Both the position numbers and the translations under genes were made by a program. Below the pieces are notes generated by a model. That model had not been told where the DNA came from. It worked only from the letters and a program-made list of their open reading frames with translations, and did no database searches. From a phage, in the sequence record PZ445532.1: a stretch of DNA of 44,581 nt; one strand, 5' to 3'. Numbering within the stretch: position 1 is the first letter of the stretch; the number at the start of each line of letters is the position of its first letter. This document shows positions 1 to 44,581 of the stretch, piece after piece.

Positions 1-1386
1 ATGCGTAACTATGCGGCGGAACACCGCGCACTTGAACGAGAGATCGCAAAGCGCAACCGACCTCCACGCCCAACGCGCGTTGCGCAGGCCGTCCGCCTGT
101 ACCAGCCTGATTGCCTTCCGCACCAAGTGGAACTACTGCGGGACACGAAGACTAAAATCCTCGGCCTGTGTTCTGGCTTCGGTGGTGGAAAGTCATGGGT
201 CGCGGCGCGTAAGGTCATCCAGCTTCTGACACTGAACCCTGGGCATGACGGCATCGTGACCGAGCCGACTATCCCACTCCTGGTTAAAATCATGTATCCG
301 GAATTGGAGAAGGCTTTCGACGAGGCTGGCTTCCGGTGGAAGTTCAACAAGCAGGACAAGATCTATAGCGTTCTGGTGAAAGGCAAATGGACCCGCGTTA
401 TCTGCGAGTCAATGGAGAACTACACCCGCCTAATCGGGGTTAACGCCGCGTGGATTGTTGCCGACGAGTTCGACACCACGAAGCAAGACGTCGCAATGGC
501 GGCTTATCACAAATTGCTCGGTCGTCTGCGTGCGGGCTTCGTCCGCCAGTTCGTCATAGTATCCACGCCTGAAGGCTTCCGGGCGATGTATCAAATTTTC
601 GAGGTGGAGAAGGATAGCCAAAAGCGCCTGATCCGGGCGAAGACCACCGACAACCACCATTTACCGGCAGACTTTATCGACACGCTGCGCAGTCAGTACC
701 CGGCTAACCTGATCGACGCGTACCTGAACGGCCTATTTGTTAACCTTACGTCGGGCGCGGTGTATAAGATGTTCAACCGAGAGGAGAACGCCAGCACCGA
801 AGAAGTACAACCGGAAGACACGCTGATTATCGGAATGGACTTTAACGTCACGAAAATGGCGGCGGTCGTGTACGTCAGACGGCAGCGAGTCGCCGAGAAC
901 AAGGAGTTCCGCGACGAGATTCACGCGGTGGATGAATTTGTGGACCTGTTTGATACCCCGGCTATGATTGAGGCGATCGAGGAGCGCTACCCCGATCATT
1001 GTGCTGCCGGTCGTGTTGTCGTTTACCCGGATAGCAGCGGAAAATCCCGCAAAACGGTCAACGCGTCGTCGTCCGATATCGCGCAACTGGAAGATGCGGG
1101 CTTCGAGGTGGAGTATGACAGTGTTAACCCGCCTGTGAAAGACCGATTGATCGCGATGAATACGATGATGTGCAACTCGAAGGGTGTGCGCCAGTATTTT
1201 GTCAACCTGGATAAATGCCCTACACTAGCGAAATGTCTGGAACAGCAGGTGTACGACCTGAAGAAAGGCGAGCCGGATAAAACTGCCGGTGTGGACCACA
1301 TGAATGACGCAGCGGGCTACCCTATTGCGCACTTGTTCCCTGTGATTCGTCCGATCGCCGTTGTTCCTACCGTAGATTTCTACTAA
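1..1386 (+). CDS. terminase large subunit
   Basis: 461-aa ORF. Walker A-like GFGGGKSW and Walker B-like WIVADEFD motifs. Lies between the small-terminase candidate (which wraps across the window end) and the portal gene. Confidence 0.88.
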   Translation: MRNYAAEHRALEREIAKRNRPPRPTRVAQAVRLYQPDCLPHQVELLRDTKTKILGLCSGFGGGKSWVAARKVIQLLTLNPGHDGIVTEPTIPLLVKIMYPELEKAFDEAGFRWKFNKQDKIYSVLVKGKWTRVICESMENYTRLIGVNAAWIVADEFDTTKQDVAMAAYHKLLGRLRAGFVRQFVIVSTPEGFRAMYQIFEVEKDSQKRLIRAKTTDNHHLPADFIDTLRSQYPANLIDAYLNGLFVNLTSGAVYKMFNREENASTEEVQPEDTLIIGMDFNVTKMAAVVYVRRQRVAENKEFRDEIHAVDEFVDLFDTPAMIEAIEERYPDHCAAGRVVVYPDSSGKSRKTVNASSSDIAQLEDAGFEVEYDSVNPPVKDRLIAMNTMMCNSKGVRQYFVNLDKCPTLAKCLEQQVYDLKKGEPDKTAGVDHMNDAAGYPIAHLFPVIRPIAVVPTVDFY

Positions 1387-1397
1387 GGAAACCGACC

Positions 1398-2918
1398 ATG
1401 ACCGTTAACGTTGACAACCAGCACCCGCTCTATGCGCGCATCGCGCCAGAGTGGAAAATGATCCGTGACTGCGTAGCAGGGGAGCGCGCCGTGAAGGCGT
1501 GCGGCCCCTTGTACCTGCCACACCCCGCAAGCGGCGACACCACCGACCCGAAATCACGGGCACGGTATAAGGCATATAAGCAACGTGCTGTATTCCTGAA
1601 CGCCACCGCCCGCACACTGAATGCGCTGTTAGGGGTCGCCTTCGCCAAACCGGTGAGTATGGACCTTTCCGGGGCAATGGCTGACCTTATTGATGACGTT
1701 GACGGCAGCGGTATGCCGCTGGCGCAACTCCTGCGCGGTGCTATGTCTGAAGTTCTGCAATCAGGCCGTGCCGGGTTTATGGTCGACTACGACCGCCAGG
1801 CGCATTTTGACGAACTGGGTAACGTAGTACCGCAGACAGCCGCTGAAATGGCAGCACACCGCCCGCTTATCCGCCTGTATACGGCTGAACAGATCATTAA
1901 CTGGCGGCAGACCCACGGGGTCGACACGCTAATCGTGCTGAAGGAAACGGACGAAATCAGCACCGAAGACCCGGACGACTTCGCAAACCACGAGGTGACC
2001 ATCTGGACCGAGCTTCGCATGATTGAAGGCAAGGCACACGCCCGCCGCTGGTTTTACAATGCGGACACGTCAGAAGTGCAAATGGACTTGCCGCGGGGAT
2101 TCACCCGCACCGATCTTGTACCACTGGTGGATGCCTCCGGTAATGCGCTTACTCAACTGCCATTTTGCTGGTGTGGCGCGGTGGACAACAACGCGACACC
2201 GGACGCCGCACCACTGGCGGATATTGCATCCATCAACATTAAGCACTACAACGCCGAAGCAGACGTCGCCGAGATTGCGCACATCGTGGGTCAACCTACC
2301 CTCATTGCGACCGGCCTTACCCAGTCATGGGCGGACAAGAACCTGAAAGGCGGCATCGCGCTCGGGGCAACTAAGGGCGTTATCCTGGGCCAGAACATGG
2401 ACGCCAAACTGCTTCAGGCCGAAGAACGAAACCTATCGGTCGCACTGTGTGAACGCCGAGAGTTGCAAATGGCTAAACTGGGCGCGGCCCTTGTCGAGAA
2501 AGGGACCGCACCTAAGACGGCAACCGAGGCGGCTTATGATGCGCAGACTGATAACAGTATCCTGTCTCTGATTGCCGGTAACGTTGAGAAGGCTTTCAAC
2601 CGTGCGCTGCAAATTGTCCAGCTATTCACTGGTGACACCGCCGATCAGCGCGTAACGCTGAACAAGTTCTACACCGAAATCACGGTTGACGCGCAGCTTA
2701 TGACCGCAATGATGGCTGGTGTGCAGACCGGTACGGTCCGTCTGGCGGACTTTATCAAGTGGATGATGGCCCAGGGCGTTATTGACGACTCGCAAACCGT
2801 TGAGCAGGTGGAAGACGAATTGCGAAATCAGAATCCATTGCCTCAAATGTCCCCGGATGCGGTAGAATCTACCGAAGAAGACCCGGACAAGGTAGCGGAC
2901 AATGGCGAAGACAATTAA
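1398..2918 (+). CDS. portal protein
   Basis: 506-aa ORF directly after the large terminase. RBS AAGGAAA 6 nt upstream. Acidic C-terminus. Call rests on size and gene order. Confidence 0.8.
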   Translation: MTVNVDNQHPLYARIAPEWKMIRDCVAGERAVKACGPLYLPHPASGDTTDPKSRARYKAYKQRAVFLNATARTLNALLGVAFAKPVSMDLSGAMADLIDDVDGSGMPLAQLLRGAMSEVLQSGRAGFMVDYDRQAHFDELGNVVPQTAAEMAAHRPLIRLYTAEQIINWRQTHGVDTLIVLKETDEISTEDPDDFANHEVTIWTELRMIEGKAHARRWFYNADTSEVQMDLPRGFTRTDLVPLVDASGNALTQLPFCWCGAVDNNATPDAAPLADIASINIKHYNAEADVAEIAHIVGQPTLIATGLTQSWADKNLKGGIALGATKGVILGQNMDAKLLQAEERNLSVALCERRELQMAKLGAALVEKGTAPKTATEAAYDAQTDNSILSLIAGNVEKAFNRALQIVQLFTGDTADQRVTLNKFYTEITVDAQLMTAMMAGVQTGTVRLADFIKWMMAQGVIDDSQTVEQVEDELRNQNPLPQMSPDAVESTEEDPDKVADNGEDN

Positions 2919-4453: not shown

Positions 4454-5218
4454 TTAGCGCGGAATGCCGCAAATCTCGTTGAGTGTTTTCACATCCAGCG
4501 CCACCGCCGTGGATTTTGGCTTGTCCGGGTATGGGATGAATTGCTCAACTTCAGGCCATGCTTTAATCAGCTTCTTGTCAGTATTGTGCAGGTCCAGCAC
4601 ACCGGTAACGGTGAGTTTGAACGCGTCATACTTAGCACGCAACTCACGGCGGGCCTGGTCGTTACGGTCCAGGCGCTTACAGAAGTCATGGTCCGCAGGG
4701 TAATCTGCGCGACCGCGTGGGAGATATATCGGCAGCGCTTTCCCGTCCTCGTCCACTTCGCACACTGACGCGAGCATAACTGTCTCGAACCCCGGAACGA
4801 TATCGCCGAGATCAGGCGCGAGCTTATTCATATATTTCTCTTCCCAGTATCCGCGATGTACGCGGTATTGGTGACCGTCACCGCTCAAGGACAAGGTGCG
4901 AACATTTCCGCCTGCGTTGATTTCGAAAGTGGCGTCGTAAACGCTGCCGATACCTTTCGGGCGGTCGGTGTTATAACTATATGTCGCCTTGTTGGTATAT
5001 ACACTGACGCCGTACATCTGCGACGGGTCATCGACGATTGCGGCAATGCGCTCTAGTAGCTTGGCGAACGTGCGAATGCCTTCCGGCATACAGTCCAGCG
5101 TAATGGCATAAGCCAGGTCGCGCGAGTCCGTCATGATTTGTTTGGCTTCGGTTGCGATTTCGTGGTCGCGCAGGATGTTAGCCAGAATCTGATTTTTAAT
5201 GTCTTTAGTCAGTCTCAT
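4454..5218 (-). CDS. hypothetical protein (second gene of antisense cassette)
   Basis: 254-aa ORF. RBS GAGGA 7 nt upstream of the ATG. No recognisable motif. Co-oriented with the DnaN-like gene. Confidence 0.6.
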   Translation of the reverse strand: MRLTKDIKNQILANILRDHEIATEAKQIMTDSRDLAYAITLDCMPEGIRTFAKLLERIAAIVDDPSQMYGVSVYTNKATYSYNTDRPKGIGSVYDATFEINAGGNVRTLSLSGDGHQYRVHRGYWEEKYMNKLAPDLGDIVPGFETVMLASVCEVDEDGKALPIYLPRGRADYPADHDFCKRLDRNDQARRELRAKYDAFKLTVTGVLDLHNTDKKLIKAWPEVEQFIPYPDKPKSTAVALDVKTLNEICGIPR

Positions 5219-5299
5219 TTTTGTGTCCTCGTTGTTGGGGCTTTCGCCCCGTTTGGTTTAGTTAAACTTGATGTTGCCGCCAATAGGGTGCTTTGTTAG

Positions 5300-5818
5300 C
5301 TACAAACGCATCGGCATGATAACAAGGAAGGCACCGCCTTTGAACAGCACACGTGTCGCCTTGTCTACTCCCTGAAATTCCAGTTTTAAGCTATCAAACT
5401 TACGGTCGAACAATTTAGCAATTTTGCAGGCGTCGGACAGGTATACCCCGGCAAACCCTATAGCCTCCACTTTAGCGCTGTCGAAAGACGTAACACGACG
5501 CCAGTCTGGGAATCTGCCGTCTATGATCTCTACGGGTATGGTACCGATTAATACGTCTTTACTATCAAAGAACGCAGCGGATGTGCCGTCTATGTTGCAG
5601 TATTCGAATTTTGTAGGTAAGCGGCCTTTAATTGCTACTATTTTACTTTCACCTTCGGGAACAACCGCGGACCCGCAGAACAAACGATGACCGTCGGTGG
5701 CCACGATGAATCCTTTCTCGTCGAAAAATACACCATTCAGATAGTACCGCACGTCATTAGTTGCGGCGCACATCATAGCGGCTTTAAGATCGGCATAGTT
5801 AACTTTAATCATTGTCAT
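5300..5818 (-). CDS. truncated beta-sliding-clamp (DnaN) homologue, domain II plus C-terminal segment
   Basis: 172 aa from MTMIKVNY (internal start of the 5300..6259 ORF, RBS GAGGAA). Contains DVRYYLNGVFF, ATDGHRL, DGRFPDWRRV and C-terminal VIMPMRL. These match the conserved E. coli DnaN blocks DVRYYLNGMLF, ATDGHRLA, DGRFPDYRRV and C-terminal VVMPMRL (recalled from memory). Confidence 0.7.
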   Translation of the reverse strand: MTMIKVNYADLKAAMMCAATNDVRYYLNGVFFDEKGFIVATDGHRLFCGSAVVPEGESKIVAIKGRLPTKFEYCNIDGTSAAFFDSKDVLIGTIPVEIIDGRFPDWRRVTSFDSAKVEAIGFAGVYLSDACKIAKLFDRKFDSLKLEFQGVDKATRVLFKGGAFLVIMPMRL

Positions 5819-5960
5819 TTCCTCATGTTGGTGTGCAACCAATATACTGCAACCAACATACGCAATGCAAGCGAATTTTGCGATTATTTTTATCACTGAT
5901 AATATTAGAGGCGTGAAGTCGAGCGGGTGGCCCGCTCTGCCACAATCCCAGGGGGATAGC

Positions 5961-6662
5961 ATGAAACTTACTAAAGCAGAATATGACGCGTTGCCGGAAG
6001 GTATGAAGGCGCTTTTTGTCGCCGATGGTGATGGGTATAAATCAACGTTCATGACCGCCGAAGAAGTACAGGCGGAGATCAAGGGTCTGAAAGACAACAA
6101 CGCGAAGCTGGTTAGCGAGAAGAAAGCAGAAGCCGAACGCCGCGCCGAAGCTGAGCGCCTTGCGAAAGAGAAAGAGGAAGCCGCCGCGCGCAAAAATGGC
6201 GACCTCGAAGCGATCGACAAGTCCTGGAAAGATAAGTTTGCAAAACACGAAGCAGACACATCGGGAAAAATCGAAGCCTACCGCAAGCAGATCCACGATC
6301 TAACCATCGGCAGCGCTGCCAAAGACCTGGCGTCGAAGCTATTCGGTAAGAATGCGGGCATCATGCAACGCCACGTTATGGACCGCCTGACGCTGGAGGA
6401 CGGCGAAGACGGCAGCTTGAAGGTGCGCGTCCTGCAGGATGGCAAACCGTCCGCGCTAACTATGGAAGAGCTTGAAAAAGAGTTCCGTAATAACGCCGAT
6501 TTTGCATCCGTCCTGGCTGGCACGCCAGCCGGTGGTGCGCCGAGCAAACCGACGCATGTTGTCGAAGATGTGAAGTCGAAAATCTCTATGGGCCACAGCT
6601 TCGGCATCACCGATCTGACGAAACAGGCTGGTGAAATCATCGCTAAAATGGGCGACGAGTAA
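5961..6662 (+). CDS. head scaffolding protein (putative)
   Basis: 233 aa from MKLTKAEYD (RBS GGGGGA). Charged, Ala/Glu/Lys-rich coiled-coil-like sequence directly upstream of the major capsid gene. Confidence 0.55.
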   Translation: MKLTKAEYDALPEGMKALFVADGDGYKSTFMTAEEVQAEIKGLKDNNAKLVSEKKAEAERRAEAERLAKEKEEAAARKNGDLEAIDKSWKDKFAKHEADTSGKIEAYRKQIHDLTIGSAAKDLASKLFGKNAGIMQRHVMDRLTLEDGEDGSLKVRVLQDGKPSALTMEELEKEFRNNADFASVLAGTPAGGAPSKPTHVVEDVKSKISMGHSFGITDLTKQAGEIIAKMGDE

Positions 6663-11429: not shown

Positions 11430-11742
11430 AAGCGGGACAGGCGGGACGTCCCGTTTTGTCCCGCACCTCTAAAACTGCATATTTACCCACTTACATTGCA
11501 TAAATTAAAAGCGGGACAGGGTGCTGTCCCGATCTATCCCACCCTCAAAATGTGAATATCTATTCTGTTTTCGTGCATAAAGTAAGCGGGACAAAAAGCG
11601 GGACAAACAGGAGGCGGGACAAAGCGGGACAGCACCCTGTCCCCGCCAGTGCTGCCGCGGGTTTTAGCCGATCGGGACAGGCGGGACAAAGCCCAGTCTT
11701 TCAGACTAGACGGGGGTCAATGGCCCCCCTCGTCTGAGACTG
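11430..11742. repeat. non-coding module: GCGGGACA(G) repeat array, inverted repeats and 51-bp conserved hairpin element (copy A)
   Basis: At least 8 copies of GCGGGACA in a 380-bp gap, several paired with CTGTCCC as hairpins. Ends with a 51-bp sequence (11692..11742) identical to 39840..39890. Confidence 0.85.
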
Positions 11743-11810
11743 AATAAGGTTTGTTTTAAATTCGCTGATACAATAACCGACGGCAACTGCATAAAAAGGG
11801 GGACTGCATA

Positions 11811-39573: not shown

Positions 39574-39690
39574 ATTCTGCGCGCATTGGTTGCCGATATG
39601 GTAATTCCCATATCGGTGAATGATTAAATTTTGCGCGCATTGGTTGCCATTTTGAGTGTTTTTACCTGGTCGTATTGGTTGCCGTGTAGT
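39574..39690. repeat. three direct repeats of GCGCATTGGTTGCC plus a perfect 9-bp inverted repeat
   Basis: TTGGTTGCC at 39586, 39640 and 39675. The first two copies sit in a 23-bp direct repeat TAAATT[CT]TGCGCGCATTGGTTGCC. Inverted repeat CCGATATGG-TAATTC-CCATATCGG at 39593..39616. Confidence 0.8.
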
Positions 39691-39724
39691 GTAAATATAG
39701 TGAATAGTTATGCAATAAAACTGC

Positions 39725-39890
39725 ATAAAGTAAGCGGGACAGAAAGCGGGACAGACCAGGGGCGGGACAAAGCGGGACAGCACCCCTGTCCCGCCCCGGA
39801 TGACGCGGCCTGGCGAGGAGCGGGACAGCGGGACAGCACCCCAGTCTTTCAGACTAGACGGGGGTCAATGGCCCCCCTCGTCTGAGACTG
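39725..39890. repeat. non-coding module: GCGGGACA(G) repeat array and 51-bp conserved hairpin element (copy B)
   Basis: AGCGGGACAG repeated at least 6 times. Hairpin GGGACAG-CACC-CCTGTCCC. The terminal 51 bp (39840..39890) are identical to 11692..11742. Confidence 0.85.
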
Positions 39891-40105
39891 CATAAAATCC
39901 AGGATGCACGACGCACGGCAGCATGATGCAAATTGCGGTCGTCGATGAACTAGGCAACCAATGCGAGTTGCAGAATGGTGGGTGGAAAATGCAGTTTGCA
40001 GTCACAGCAGATAGCGATCGACTTTTTCATGCGCGTGATTAATATTGGTTGCATTCGCCCTGGCACACTGCTATATTGGTTGCACACCAACATGAGGACT
40101 GAACA

Positions 40106-40411
40106 ATGAAAGCATTAATCTGGAATTACACAATGGCGGTGGCGAAGCTGTACGAAGCGAAGCACACAAACGGCAACGCAGACGACGCGCGCCAGGTTGT
40201 TATCCTGGCCCAGCAGGGAATCATGAACGCGTTCGACGATATGTTTGCCAGCCTGGACGAACTGGAACCGCTGCGCGTGGCAATCTGCGAATATGCGATG
40301 GCTTTTGCCCGCGAGCGCCTGGCGTATCGCTTCGGGATCGGTGAGACGGCAGTGACAAACGTCGCTCGTATTAAAGCCCAGCGCGAACTATTCGCCCAGC
40401 TTGCAAAATAA
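40106..40411 (+). CDS. hypothetical protein
   Basis: 101-aa ORF preceded by the 27-bp leader shared with the DnaN-like gene. Confidence 0.55.
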   Translation: MKALIWNYTMAVAKLYEAKHTNGNADDARQVVILAQQGIMNAFDDMFASLDELEPLRVAICEYAMAFARERLAYRFGIGETAVTNVARIKAQRELFAQLAK

Positions 40412-42542: not shown

Positions 42543-43020
42543 TAACGGTCTACGATTTACGGCAGCATGGGAGGCTTTCAGCCCAGTGCCGTATTTCGCG
42601 ACCAAGAAAGAGCAGGCCCGCGGCCTGTACACCTGGGGTTATGGGCACACCGGCACTAATCCGCCACGAAGCATTACCCGTGCGGAAGCGCTGGAACTGC
42701 TCAAGCGAGATGTGGCGTATGCCGAGGACTGGGTGAACAAATACGCACATCCGAGCATTAACCAGGCGCAATTCGACGCGCTGGTGGACCTGGTAATCAA
42801 TGCCGGTCAGGGTCCGATCGTACCGGATGACGTCGCGAATGATTTCGACGATGCGGTCCGCCTGGGCGACTGGGCGAAGGTCCGTGCTACACTGCCGCAG
42901 TTCCGCAAGCAAGGCGGGGAAGTGCTTAAGGGTCTGGTGCGCCGTGCAATCGGTAGACAGGCGTTGTTTGATGGTAAGCAGTGGGACGTTGCCGAGAAAA
43001 TCGGGCGTAACGCAGCATAA
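42529..43020 (+). CDS. endolysin (GH24 lysozyme-like)
   Basis: 163 aa with the lysozyme-like block YTWGYGHTG and surrounding conserved acidic residues. Confidence 0.85.
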   Translation: MRFSDNGLRFTAAWEAFSPVPYFATKKEQARGLYTWGYGHTGTNPPRSITRAEALELLKRDVAYAEDWVNKYAHPSINQAQFDALVDLVINAGQGPIVPDDVANDFDDAVRLGDWAKVRATLPQFRKQGGEVLKGLVRRAIGRQALFDGKQWDVAEKIGRNAA

Positions 43021-43035
43021 TACGAGGAACACAAT

Positions 43036-43449
43036 ATGTTAAAAAGCATTCTTGATCATAACGCCGACGCACTTGCTGCACTGGCTAAAACCGAAGACCC
43101 TGGCGCACGCGCTATCATCGCGGACACTATCAGCCATGCAGGCGTCTTTGACGCGAAGCTGCCGAGTGTGCCGGAAAGAAAGCCCGTGGCAAGTGCGACC
43201 GTAACCATCACCCCAGTGTCAGCCGCAGTTGGTGCGAAGGCCACCGCTTCTGTTGCCGTCCTGCCATCCGACGCAACTAACAAGGCCGGGAAGTGGGTGT
43301 CCGCAAACCCTGACTGCGCGGCAGTCAACCAGACTACCGGCGAAATCACAGCAAAATCGGAGGGTGGCGTCCACATCTTTTGGGTGGCATCCGATGGAGG
43401 CGGGGCGATGGCGTCCGCCATCTTCACCGTAACGGGAGCAGGAAAATAA
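43036..43449 (+). CDS. Ig-like (Big_2-like) domain protein
   Basis: 137 aa. C-terminal half resembles bacterial Ig-like domains (...ITAKSEGGVHIFWVASDGGG...FTVT). Confidence 0.55.
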   Translation: MLKSILDHNADALAALAKTEDPGARAIIADTISHAGVFDAKLPSVPERKPVASATVTITPVSAAVGAKATASVAVLPSDATNKAGKWVSANPDCAAVNQTTGEITAKSEGGVHIFWVASDGGGAMASAIFTVTGAGK

Positions 43450-43455
43450 AACCAC

Positions 43456-43481
43456 AAGCCCGGTTAATTCCGGGCTTTTTA
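43456..43481 (+). terminator. rho-independent terminator
   Basis: AAGCCCGG-TTAATT-CCGGGCTT followed by TTTTTA. Confidence 0.75.
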
Positions 43482-43545
43482 TTGCTTGACTTGCAACCAA
43501 CTATCAGACCATACTGCTACCAATCGACGAGAGGAGTATTACACT

Positions 43546-43632
43546 ATGGCACGTAATGATATTTTGGTGTTGGCAATATGGTCCACTGCGGCATTCATTG
43601 GTATGGTTATTTGTCAGGTGATAAATGGCTGA
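43546..43632 (+). CDS. hydrophobic micropeptide (28 aa)
   Basis: MARNDILVLAIWSTAAFIGMVICQVING. Strong RBS GAGAGGAG 7 nt upstream. TGCAACCAA motif at 43492. Not in the ORF track (below 60 aa). Confidence 0.35.
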   Translation: MARNDILVLAIWSTAAFIGMVICQVING

Positions 43633-43700
43633 GTTAATCCGCCTTATGGCGCGAGATGAACACGTAAAAGTCACATTCTACGATGGTGGGAAGTGTTGAG

Positions 43701-43913
43701 ATGATTAGACAAGTATTCATGAGCACGCAGGCCACACGCCTGAAAGAGCTACGCAAACAACTCGAAGGCTTGCGCCGATTCGAACGAACGGCAACGGCAA
43801 TAGGCATGTCAATCAGTGAGCGGATCGAGATACTATCTCAAATACGCTACACAGAAGGCGCCATACGCGAAGTAGAAAGCATGTTAACCCGATACTACGG
43901 TCGTGCCGTTTAA
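43701..43913 (+). CDS. hypothetical protein
   Basis: ORF track 43683..43913. The internal ATG at 43701 (MIRQVF...) has better RBS spacing. Charged, helical-looking. Confidence 0.45.
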   Translation: MIRQVFMSTQATRLKELRKQLEGLRRFERTATAIGMSISERIEILSQIRYTEGAIREVESMLTRYYGRAV

Positions 43914-43940
43914 CCCTCCCAGCCCGCCGATTTGGTGGGC

Positions 43941-43966
43941 TTTTTTGTGCCTGTTATAATCCCCCT
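43941..43966 (+). terminator. rho-independent terminator
   Basis: AGCCCGCC-GATTT-GGTGGGCT (one G-U pair) followed by TTTTTT. Confidence 0.6.
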
Positions 43967-43971
43967 TAGAT

Positions 43972-43980
43972 GGCAGGGCC
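43972..43980 (+). promoter_or_regulatory. extended -10 promoter element upstream of the small-terminase candidate
   Basis: TGtTATAAT is a perfect extended -10, about 50 bp upstream of the ATG at 44031. Confidence 0.45.
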
Positions 43981-44030
43981 GTCTCCTATGTTGCCGATGG
44001 TCGGCGCATATGCACAAAAGGGCTTAAATC

Positions 44031-44581
44031 ATGGCAGAAATCAAAGTTAAGGGCCGTCGCGCCAAACTGGACGGTAGAGTGGCAGTTACCCCGCGCCGTA
44101 AACCAGGCGAGCAAACCGAACATACCAATCTCGGACCTGAGATCGAATATGGCAAGCGTCGTAAAGGCGGCAAATGTGGGCGCCCGACAGACTACCGCAC
44201 TGTGTATTGTGACCAGCTTCGTCGCTATTTCGCCGATGCCGTAGCCTGGCAGATCAACTACTCCGACAAGGGGGCTGCGCAGGTAATCCCTCGCAACAAA
44301 ATGCCAACCTTCGGCAGATTTGCCGCGGAAATCGGTGTGGGCGTCGCTTGCCTGTATCGCTGGGCGCGCGCACATGAGGAGTTCGCCGAGGCGATGGCGG
44401 ACGCTATGGAATTGCAGAAAACTTTCCTGATGGAAGCTGGCGGCGTAACCATCGCGGCGGGCTTCGCTACGTTCCTGCTTAAAGCCAACCACGGAGTCCG
44501 CGACGATATCCCACTGGATGACGACGAAGATGATAACGGCGACGTCGTTGTTGAGCCTACCGGCAAAGGTCAGGGTGAGTA
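44031..44581 (+). CDS. terminase small subunit (putative), 3' end runs off the window
   Basis: ATG at 44031 with RBS AAAAGGG. 183 codons open to the last base, acidic C-terminus. Final bases ...GAG TA plus window base 1 (A) make a TAA stop overlapping the large-terminase ATG. Missing from the ORF track. Confidence 0.65.
   Translation, partial: MAEIKVKGRRAKLDGRVAVTPRRKPGEQTEHTNLGPEIEYGKRRKGGKCGRPTDYRTVYCDQLRRYFADAVAWQINYSDKGAAQVIPRNKMPTFGRFAAEIGVGVACLYRWARAHEEFAEAMADAMELQKTFLMEAGGVTIAAGFATFLLKANHGVRDDIPLDDDEDDNGDVVVEPTGKGQGE

What the first reader, a model, noticed from the sequence alone, without database searches (positions are those of the whole stretch)
44031..44581. Small-terminase ORF whose stop codon is completed across the window ends
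The ORF starting at 44031 is open to the last base. The final bases ...GAG TA plus window base 1 (A) form a TAA stop that overlaps the large-terminase ATG at 1..3 (TAATG). This is the usual TerS-TerL junction, so the window is most likely a complete circular or circularly permuted genome opened inside this junction. The gene is missing from the ORF track.
Basis: seen in the sequence. Interest (0 to 1): 0.4.

Follow-up and report, generated by a model that had tools for sequence, protein, structure and literature searches.

The report
Phage small-terminase gene split by linearisation
The open reading frame at the end of the window is the ordinary small-terminase gene of a complete E. coli Dhillonvirus phage genome, and it looks truncated only because the circularly assembled genome was cut open at the first base of the next gene.

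Summary
The finding is ordinary.

- **ORF:** 44031..44581 is 183 codons plus TA. Window base 1 completes a TAA stop that overlaps the ATG at 1..3.
- **Products:** The 183-aa product is the Dhillonvirus small terminase (phrog_3064, E 2.4e-72; 97-99% identical to annotated TerS). Its best fold matches are Sf6 gp1 and P22 gp3. The ORF at 1..1386 is TerL and 1398..2918 is the portal gene.
- **Junction:** The two window ends joined in silico align in one piece in 148 of 153 related GenBank phage records. Against circular phiEco273, window bases 44581 and 1 fall on adjacent bases, and the rest of the genome is colinear.
- **Relatives:** All 18 close relatives have a 183-aa terS ending in TAATG or TGATG, followed by a 461-aa terL.
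- **Packaging:** Published PhageTerm analyses of most relatives report headful (pac), circularly permuted genomes.
- **Start point:** Starting exactly on the terL ATG is a software convention (e.g. Dnaapler), not a physical end.

Aside: terS has a conserved leader of promoter plus two covarying NGG-triloop hairpins. This leader has no Rfam match and may deserve its own study.

The parts
43921..43947 (+). Intrinsic terminator (9-bp stem AGCCCGCCG/TGGTGGGCT plus T-run) that ends the upstream lysis/accessory unit
   Evidence: Terminator scan. The same site is present in relative L001 and conserved in the alignment.
43952..43960 (+). Extended -10 promoter-like box TGTTATAAT (TG at 43952-53, TATAAT at 43955-60). 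Inferred promoter of the packaging/structural operon.
   Evidence: Read from the sequence. Conserved as TGnTATAAT or TGnTATACT in relatives down to 38% TerS identity. The consensus scan did not report it because the -35 box is weak. Promoter function is inferred.
43968..43984 (+). Leader hairpin 1: AGATGGC-AGG-GCCGTCT (7 bp, NGG triloop)
   Evidence: All 7 pairs covary across 14 sequences, with 100% standard pairs.
43987..44010 (+). Leader hairpin 2: TATGT-TGCCGA-TGG-TCGGCG-CATA. The loop A-TGG-T is invariant and the core is 43992-44006.
   Evidence: 5 of 6 pairs covary across 9 distinct sequences. It is the only a-TGG-t hairpin with a stem of at least 5 bp in the window on either strand.
44018..44022 (+). 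Shine-Dalgarno-like AAGGG, 8 nt before the terS ATG
   Evidence: Read from the sequence. Conserved in relatives.
44031..44581 (+). terS (small terminase): codons 1-183 plus the first two bases (TA) of its stop codon
1..1 (+). Third base of the terS TAA stop codon, which is also the first base of the terL ATG (the TAATG overlap)
1..1386 (+). terL (large terminase, 461 aa)
   Evidence: Pfam Terminase_6N E 4.2e-14 and Terminase_6C E 4.9e-07. phrog_10250 and phrog_2. Annotated as TerL in relatives.
1398..2918 (+). Portal protein gene (506 aa), the next gene of the packaging module
   Evidence: phrog_145 E 8.5e-137. DUF4055. Annotated as portal in phiEco273.

Best explanation
The window is one complete genome (44,581 bp, 54.3% G+C) of a virulent E. 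coli siphophage of the genus Dhillonvirus (HK578/SO-1-like). Its assembly closed into a circle and was then written out starting at the first base of the large-terminase gene.

That cut falls inside the 1-nt stop/start overlap TAATG, so the small-terminase gene terS (183 codons, 44031..44581 plus base 1) loses the last base of its stop codon to the other end of the record.

Shown: gene identity, the junction, colinearity and completeness.

Inferred from relatives and from knowledge of the P22 gp3 / Sf6 gp1 TerS family:
- TerS oligomers recognise a pac site on concatemeric DNA and recruit TerL.
- TerL cuts and then packages by the headful, giving terminally redundant, circularly permuted virion DNA. 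This is why the assembly circularises and why the record has no natural first base.
- terL translation is probably coupled to terS termination at UAAUG, because no well-conserved Shine-Dalgarno sequence precedes the terL ATG.
For: 1. ORF geometry and stop completion.
3. Purifying selection on the frame.
4. Junction: the joined ends align as a single piece in 148 of 153 records. Window bases 44581 and 1 map to adjacent bases of circular phiEco273, and the whole genome is colinear. There is no terminal overlap between the ends.
5. 18 of 18 relatives have TAATG or TGATG. More distant relatives keep terS-terL overlaps of 1, 4 or 8 nt.
6. The same TAATG and ATGA overlaps occur at other gene junctions in this window.
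7. Headful packaging and permutation were reported by PhageTerm for the relatives Opt-212 (PMC9022532), BF9 (PMC10059673), UDS3lw (PMC13348001) and 4 of 5 bovine dhillonviruses (PMC8407724). GenBank and IMG/VR records of the genus start at many different places.
8. Tools such as Dnaapler re-start phage genomes at terL (PMC11783317).
Against: - No reads or virion-end data exist for this isolate, so permutation is inferred.
- One Dhillonvirus (EE09, about 70% similar) was reported by PhageTerm as 5' cos with ATCTTAAGGG (PMC10673088), and one bovine isolate was reported as 'Fixed' termini.
- The window protein alone is below the Pfam gathering score for GP3_package (20.5 vs 29.4 bits) and Sf6_terminase (20.0 vs 27). 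It has no direct PDB sequence hit.
- Foldseek E-values are weak, 0.06 or worse.
- The pac site itself was not located.
Confidence: 0.93

Rival explanations
1. The genome has fixed physical ends (cos sites or short direct terminal repeats collapsed by the assembler) rather than headful permutation. The record would still be a circularised assembly opened at terL, but the biology of the ends would differ.
For: PhageTerm called a 10-nt 5' cos end in Dhillonvirus EE09 (PMC10673088). It called 'Fixed' termini in vb_EcoS_bov25_1D (PMC8407724).
Against: - The EE09 cos sequence ATCTTAAGGG is absent from the window, even allowing one mismatch.
- Near-identical siblings of bov25_1D were called circularly permuted.
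- Three other groups report headful packaging for closer relatives.
- The TerS fold matches those of the pac phages P22 and Sf6.
Confidence: 0.1
2. The window ends are true molecular ends, or the window is a fragment of a longer molecule (a prophage or a larger contig), and the ORF continues into sequence not shown.
For: Only that the ORF has no stop codon inside the window.
Against: - Joining the ends reproduces, base for base, the junction found in 148 of 153 relatives and in circular phiEco273.
- The window length of 44,581 bp lies within the 41.9-47.1 kb range of the complete-genome records listed, and the module order is complete.
- Base 1 is exactly the A of the terL ATG, which would happen 1 time in 44,581 by chance, and this matches a known reorientation convention.
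- A nuclease cut inside a stop/start overlap is not known for any terminase (own knowledge).
Confidence: 0.02
3. The ORF encodes a helix-turn-helix DNA-binding regulator that merely sits upstream of terL, not the small terminase.
For: Pfam TerS matches are below threshold for this protein. Weak similarity to TetR-type HTH regions.
Against: - phrog_3064 'terminase' at E 2.4e-72.
- Most homologues pass GP3_package.
- The best structural matches are two solved TerS proteins, ahead of all HTH regulators.
- Its position directly before terL, overlapping it, is conserved across relatives down to about 40% identity.
- No other TerS candidate lies next to terL.
Confidence: 0.03

Closest known systems
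Small terminase of Dhillonvirus phages (e.g. HK578 gp1 AFH20506.1; phiEco273 XDN94372.1; Shigella phage 1b WOZ53410.1)
   Same: 97-99% amino-acid identity, 183 aa, the same TAATG overlap with a 461-aa TerL, and the same upstream terminator, promoter and leader.
   Different: In the window the gene is split by the choice of record start. HK578 and Sponge annotate a start 21 nt further upstream (573-nt CDS). In the window that extension is closed by an in-frame TAA at 44025-27 where relatives have TAT. This favours the 183-aa form.
P22 gp3 / Sf6 gp1 small terminases (Pfam PF16677 GP3_package, PF20901 Sf6_terminase; PDB 3P9A, 3HEF)
   Different: Only 10-15% identity in the structural alignments. 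This protein is itself below the Pfam gathering scores. It carries about 50 extra basic, low-confidence N-terminal residues and an acidic, disordered C-terminal tail. The oligomeric state and the pac site are untested.
Lambda Nu1/A terminase with cos ends
   Same: A two-subunit terminase with the small-subunit gene directly upstream of the large one (own knowledge).
   Different: TerL here is of the Terminase_6N/6C (T4-like) type. Relatives are mostly reported as permuted. No cos-type end is indicated in this window.
Promoter-proximal leader RNA hairpins that control phage late or delayed-early transcription (lambda nut boxB; HK022 put). Comparison for the terS leader only.
   Same: One or two hairpins immediately downstream of a sigma-70-type promoter at the head of a long operon. 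Stems covary while loops are conserved. The lambda and HK022 properties are from my own knowledge.
   Different: The loops are NGG triloops, not boxB pentaloops, and the stems are much shorter than those of put. There is no Rfam match, no antiterminator gene was identified, and no function was tested.

Membership tests
PHROG phrog_3064 (terminase; Dhillonvirus-type TerS) | Significant full-length match to the family HMM | tested here: met
   E 2.4e-72, 243 bits, residues 4-183 against profile positions 1-173 of 175.
P22 gp3 / Sf6 gp1-type small terminase (PF16677 / PF20901) | Sequence match at the Pfam gathering threshold | tested here: not met
   GP3_package scores 20.5 bits against a cutoff of 29.4. 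Sf6_terminase scores 20.0 against 27. Indirect support exists: 105 of 120 homologues match GP3_package at E<=1e-3, best 2.5e-18, and the homologue profile hits Sf6 gp1 at E 5.6e-05.
P22 gp3 / Sf6 gp1-type small terminase (PF16677 / PF20901) | TerS fold: HTH DNA-binding region followed by helices that form the oligomerisation core | tested here: met
P22 gp3 / Sf6 gp1-type small terminase (PF16677 / PF20901) | Gene immediately upstream of, and co-oriented with, terL | tested here: met
   TAATG overlap with the Terminase_6N/6C ORF once the ends are joined. Conserved in 18 of 18 close relatives and in distant ones.
P22 gp3 / Sf6 gp1-type small terminase (PF16677 / PF20901) | Ring oligomer (8-9-mer) that binds pac DNA and stimulates TerL | not testable with these tools
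   Needs biochemistry or a multimer structure. Only a monomer was modelled.
Genus Dhillonvirus (complete genome) | Genome-wide nucleotide similarity and synteny with HK578-like phages, about 44-45 kb and about 54.5% G+C | tested here: met
   91-93% identity over 85-97% of each half of the window to many Dhillonvirus records. Colinear with phiEco273. 44,581 bp and 54.3% G+C, against 54.5% reported for the genus.
Headful (pac) packaging with a circularly permuted, terminally redundant genome | Read-start distribution or restriction pattern showing permuted ends and a pac fragment | not testable with these tools
   No reads are available for this isolate. Relatives are reported as pac/permuted, with two dissenting reports.

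The most novel reading that the evidence does not exclude
This reading concerns the non-coding leader just upstream of the terS ORF, not the ORF itself.

- Layout: a terminator, an extended -10 box, then two tandem hairpins with NGG triloops (43952-44010).
- Conservation: found in phage lineages whose TerS proteins are only 38-57% identical. The stems covary (7 of 7 and 5 of 6 pairs) and one loop, A-UGG-U, is invariant.
- Second copy: a similar promoter-plus-hairpins leader precedes the scaffold/head genes at 5878-5960.
- It matches nothing in Rfam.

It could be an undescribed cis-regulatory RNA of the late (packaging and structural) operons. Possibilities are a docking site for a phage or host factor that makes late transcription processive, a 5' stabiliser of late mRNA, or less likely part of the packaging signal.
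Probability: 0.4. Interest if true: 0.5.

Novelty: already known. Interest (0 to 1): 0.12.

Why it matters
For annotation it matters in a small, practical way. A gene caller run on the linear record will miss terS, so the record should be treated as circular or rotated before genes are called. The record's ends must not be read as packaging ends.

Biologically the TerS-TerL junction is standard for the genus and is already annotated in more than a hundred records.

The only part with discovery potential is the conserved, covarying double-hairpin leader in front of terS, together with its counterpart before the head genes. It is not described in Rfam or in the papers searched.

Tried and rejected
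- A direct phmmer search of TerS against PDB sequences gave only noise, E 0.5 or worse.
- Pfam on the single protein gave only sub-threshold TerS hits. Both problems were resolved through homologue profiles and the predicted structure.
- The search for homologous proteins gave only 6 hits, so the exhaustive representative search was used for alignment depth.
It was repeated with 12 sequences.
- The EE09 cos motif ATCTTAAGGG was searched for and is absent.
- Rfam found nothing. A sensitive scan of the terS region gave only two sub-threshold hits at the 43456-43477 terminator. A scan of the whole window at gathering scores gave none.
- A MAFFT alignment of the whole leader mis-registered three lineages (A3), so each hairpin was analysed as an ungapped block.
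- I considered the leader as a pac or DNA palindrome. Against this, stem pairs include 12 G.U cells and no A.C cells in hairpin 1, which fits pairing in the sense-strand transcript. It is not excluded.
- A literature search for 'Dhillonvirus' plus 'late promoter' returned nothing.
- I did not locate the pac site. The only lead is that UDS3lw, which PhageTerm analysis indicated uses headful packaging with a preferred pac site (PMC13348001), has a record that begins at the window equivalent of 40005.

Full report
**1. The observation**

The last 551 bases of the window (44031..44581) start with ATG. An in-frame TAA at 44025-44027 lies just before it. The frame stays open to the final base.

551 nt is 183 codons plus 'TA'. 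Window base 1 is A, so the joined sequence reads ...GGT GAG TAATG CGT... This forms a TAA stop whose last base is the first base of the ATG at 1..3. Translating across the join gives a stop exactly at codon 184.

The ORF is missing from the mechanical ORF list only because that tool omits ORFs that run off an end.

The frame is under purifying selection. Against 18 relatives, 834 of 960 nucleotide differences are at third codon positions. 810 changed codons are synonymous and 83 are non-synonymous.

**2. What the genes are**

The 183-aa product matches PHROG phrog_3064 ('terminase') at E 2.4e-72 over its full length. It is 97-99% identical to CDSs annotated 'terminase small subunit' in Dhillonvirus records.

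On its own it is below the Pfam gathering scores for GP3_package (P22 gp3) and Sf6_terminase. It has no direct PDB sequence match.

An exhaustive search gave 826 homologues. Of the 120 aligned, 105 match GP3_package, with best E 2.5e-18. Their profile hits the Sf6 small terminase in the PDB at E 5.6e-05.

An AlphaFold model built on that alignment is confident for the core: residues 51-160 average about pLDDT 94. The first 50 basic residues and the acidic C-terminal tail are low-confidence.

The ORF at 1..1386 has Terminase_6N and Terminase_6C domains. The ORF at 1398..2918 is the portal gene.

**3. Whether the two ends are neighbours**

I joined the last 900 and first 900 bases and searched the phage collection. 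148 of 153 matching records contain the joined sequence as a single colinear piece at 91-94% identity. terS and terL are annotated side by side in those records.

Against the circular record of phage phiEco273, window base 44581 aligns to base 43548 and window base 1 to base 43547. These are adjacent bases. The rest of the window is colinear around the whole circle.

There is no sequence overlap between the two window ends.

In all 18 close relatives examined, terS is 183 codons and ends in TAATG (17 cases) or TGATG (1 case), followed by a 461-codon terL. More distant relatives (TerS 40-74% identical) keep terS directly before terL, with overlaps of 1, 4 or 8 nt.

The same TAATG and ATGA stop/start overlaps occur at several other junctions in this genome. 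The arrangement is therefore routine here.

**4. What the window is**

Both halves of the window match many Dhillonvirus genomes (HK578/SO-1-like E. coli siphophages) at 88-94% identity over 85-97% of their length.

The size of 44,581 bp and G+C of 54.3% fit the genus. No record is more than about 95% identical overall, so this looks like a separate isolate or species-level variant of a well-populated genus.

Records of the genus begin at many different points. Several begin at or just before terS. One announcement states that the assemblies circularised, that PhageTerm predicted headful packaging, and that the genomes were therefore oriented with the small terminase first (PMC9022532).

Headful/pac, permuted genomes were also reported for BF9 (PMC10059673), UDS3lw (PMC13348001) and four of five bovine dhillonviruses (PMC8407724).

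Two reports dissent. EE09 was called 5' cos with ATCTTAAGGG (PMC10673088), but that motif is absent from the window. One bovine isolate was called 'Fixed'.

The window starts exactly on the A of the terL ATG, which would happen 1 time in 44,581 by chance. This matches the practice of restarting circular phage assemblies at terL with tools such as Dnaapler (PMC11783317). The break is therefore best read as a bookkeeping choice, not a DNA end.

**5. How it most likely works**

Shown:
- gene identities
- the overlap
- completeness and colinearity

Inferred from the P22/Sf6 TerS family and from the relatives' packaging calls:
- TerS oligomers bind a pac site on concatemers and recruit TerL.
- TerL makes the first cut and then packages slightly more than one genome length per head. 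This gives permuted, terminally redundant DNA that assembles as a circle.
- The bases before the terL ATG vary at synonymous sites and form only a weak Shine-Dalgarno sequence. terL translation is therefore probably coupled to terS termination at UAAUG.
- The true terS start is 44031. The 21-nt upstream extension annotated in HK578 and Sponge is closed by a TAA in this window.

**6. Comparison and novelty**

This is the known Dhillonvirus TerS and a remote member of the P22 gp3 / Sf6 gp1 structural class. The membership table gives the details.

The finding is ordinary and matters mainly for annotation: call genes on a circular or rotated sequence, and do not treat the record ends as termini.

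**7. Seen on the way: the terS leader**

The 110 nt before terS are far more conserved than the synonymous sites of terS. The layout is:
- an intrinsic terminator at 43921-43947
- an extended -10 box TGTTATAAT at 43952-43960
- hairpin 1, AGATGGC-AGG-GCCGTCT, at 43968-43984
- hairpin 2, with core TGCCGA-TGG-TCGGCG, at 43992-44006
- a Shine-Dalgarno-like AAGGG, then the ATG

The same layout is found upstream of terS in lineages whose TerS is only 38-74% identical. Stems differ between lineages and the A-TGG-T loop is invariant.

Hairpin 1 shows 7 of 7 covarying pairs and 100% standard pairs, against 37-57% in slid controls. Hairpin 2 shows 5 of 6 covarying pairs and 96% standard pairs. Stem pairs include G.U but never A.C, which fits pairing in the sense transcript.

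Caveat: the hairpins were extracted with a hairpin finder, so the percentage paired is partly circular. The independent evidence is their fixed position and rarity. The whole window, both strands, has only one a-TGG-t hairpin and only two tandem NGG-triloop hairpin pairs.

The second tandem pair lies at 5921-5957. It sits behind another extended -10 promoter (TTGCGA-16-TAATAT, 5878-5905) and just before the real start (5961) of the scaffold-like gene. It also shows compensatory changes in relatives.

Two TerS relatives lack the leader: L045 and L094. Rfam has no match, and a literature search found nothing. Function is unknown. The candidates are late-operon antitermination or processivity, 5' mRNA stabilisation, or a packaging signal.

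Noticed in passing
window 43921-44030: The terS leader consists of a terminator, an extended -10 box TGTTATAAT and two tandem NGG-triloop hairpins (43968-43984 and 43987-44010). It is nearly invariant within the genus. In lineages with only 38-74% TerS identity it keeps covarying stems and an invariant A-TGG-T loop. There is no Rfam match.
   Followed up: partly
window 5878-5960: A second leader of the same style: TTGCGA-16-TAATAT with an upstream TG, hairpin GAGCGGG-TGG-CCCGCTC (5921-5937), and hairpin ATCCC-AGG-GGGAT (5945-5957) whose 3' arm is the Shine-Dalgarno sequence. Relatives show compensatory G-C to A-U and G.U changes. It implies that the scaffold-like gene starts at 5961, not at 5865 as the mechanical ORF list suggests.
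   Followed up: partly
window 4457-5218 (-) and 5303-5818 (-): Two minus-strand genes sit inside the plus-strand structural module. One is an Nmad5 protein (nucleotide modification associated domain 5; PF18757, E 1e-57). The other is a 172-aa protein with a weak, sub-threshold DNA polymerase III beta-clamp central-domain match (E 3.7e-5). The stretch 5239-5808 has no counterpart in phiEco273.
   Followed up: partly
window 11432-11747 and 39722-39895: The octamer GCGGGACA occurs 17 times, against 2.1 expected. 15 of the copies lie in two non-coding clusters, one before the tape-measure gene and one after the primase/helicase gene. Each cluster ends in the same hairpin of about 50 nt. Together they form a direct repeat of about 175 bp, at 83-86% identity to the relative's (phiEco273) copy of the other repeat; the two window copies were not aligned to each other. 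They could be iterons, operator arrays or a packaging-related site.
   Followed up: no
window 39574-40105 and 5816-5850: ATTGGTTGC motifs recur in the 530-nt non-coding region. A 27-nt block, TATATTGGTTGCACACCAACATGAGGA, precedes both the gene at 40106 (+) and the minus-strand gene ending at 5818. This looks like a second promoter/leader class. The UDS3lw record starts at the window equivalent of 40005; the starts of the other GenBank records (terS lies about 3.3-5.1 kb into several of them) were not mapped.
   Followed up: partly
window 43036-43688: Most relatives carry a calcineurin-like phosphoesterase gene of about 1.1 kb between the lysis genes and terS. The window lacks it. Instead, the short ORF after the lysozyme gene is extended to 137 aa with a Big_2 Ig-like domain (E 8.7e-11). 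BASEL phage KarlBarth aligns across 99% of 43020-43700, so it appears to share this layout.
   Followed up: partly
window 43683-43913: A 76-aa ORF (phrog_20931, function unknown) lies directly upstream of the terS leader. Under the matches to AV129 and BF9, features annotated 'transcriptional regulator' and 'HTH luxR-type domain-containing protein' are listed; whether they correspond to this ORF was not checked. Pfam gives no hit. It could be a regulator of the adjacent late promoter.
   Followed up: no
window 44010-44030: The alternative upstream terS start used in the HK578 and Sponge annotations (ATG at 44010, 21 nt upstream) is closed in this window by an in-frame TAA at 44025-27, where relatives have TAT. 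This suggests the shorter 183-aa form is the real product across the genus.
   Followed up: yes
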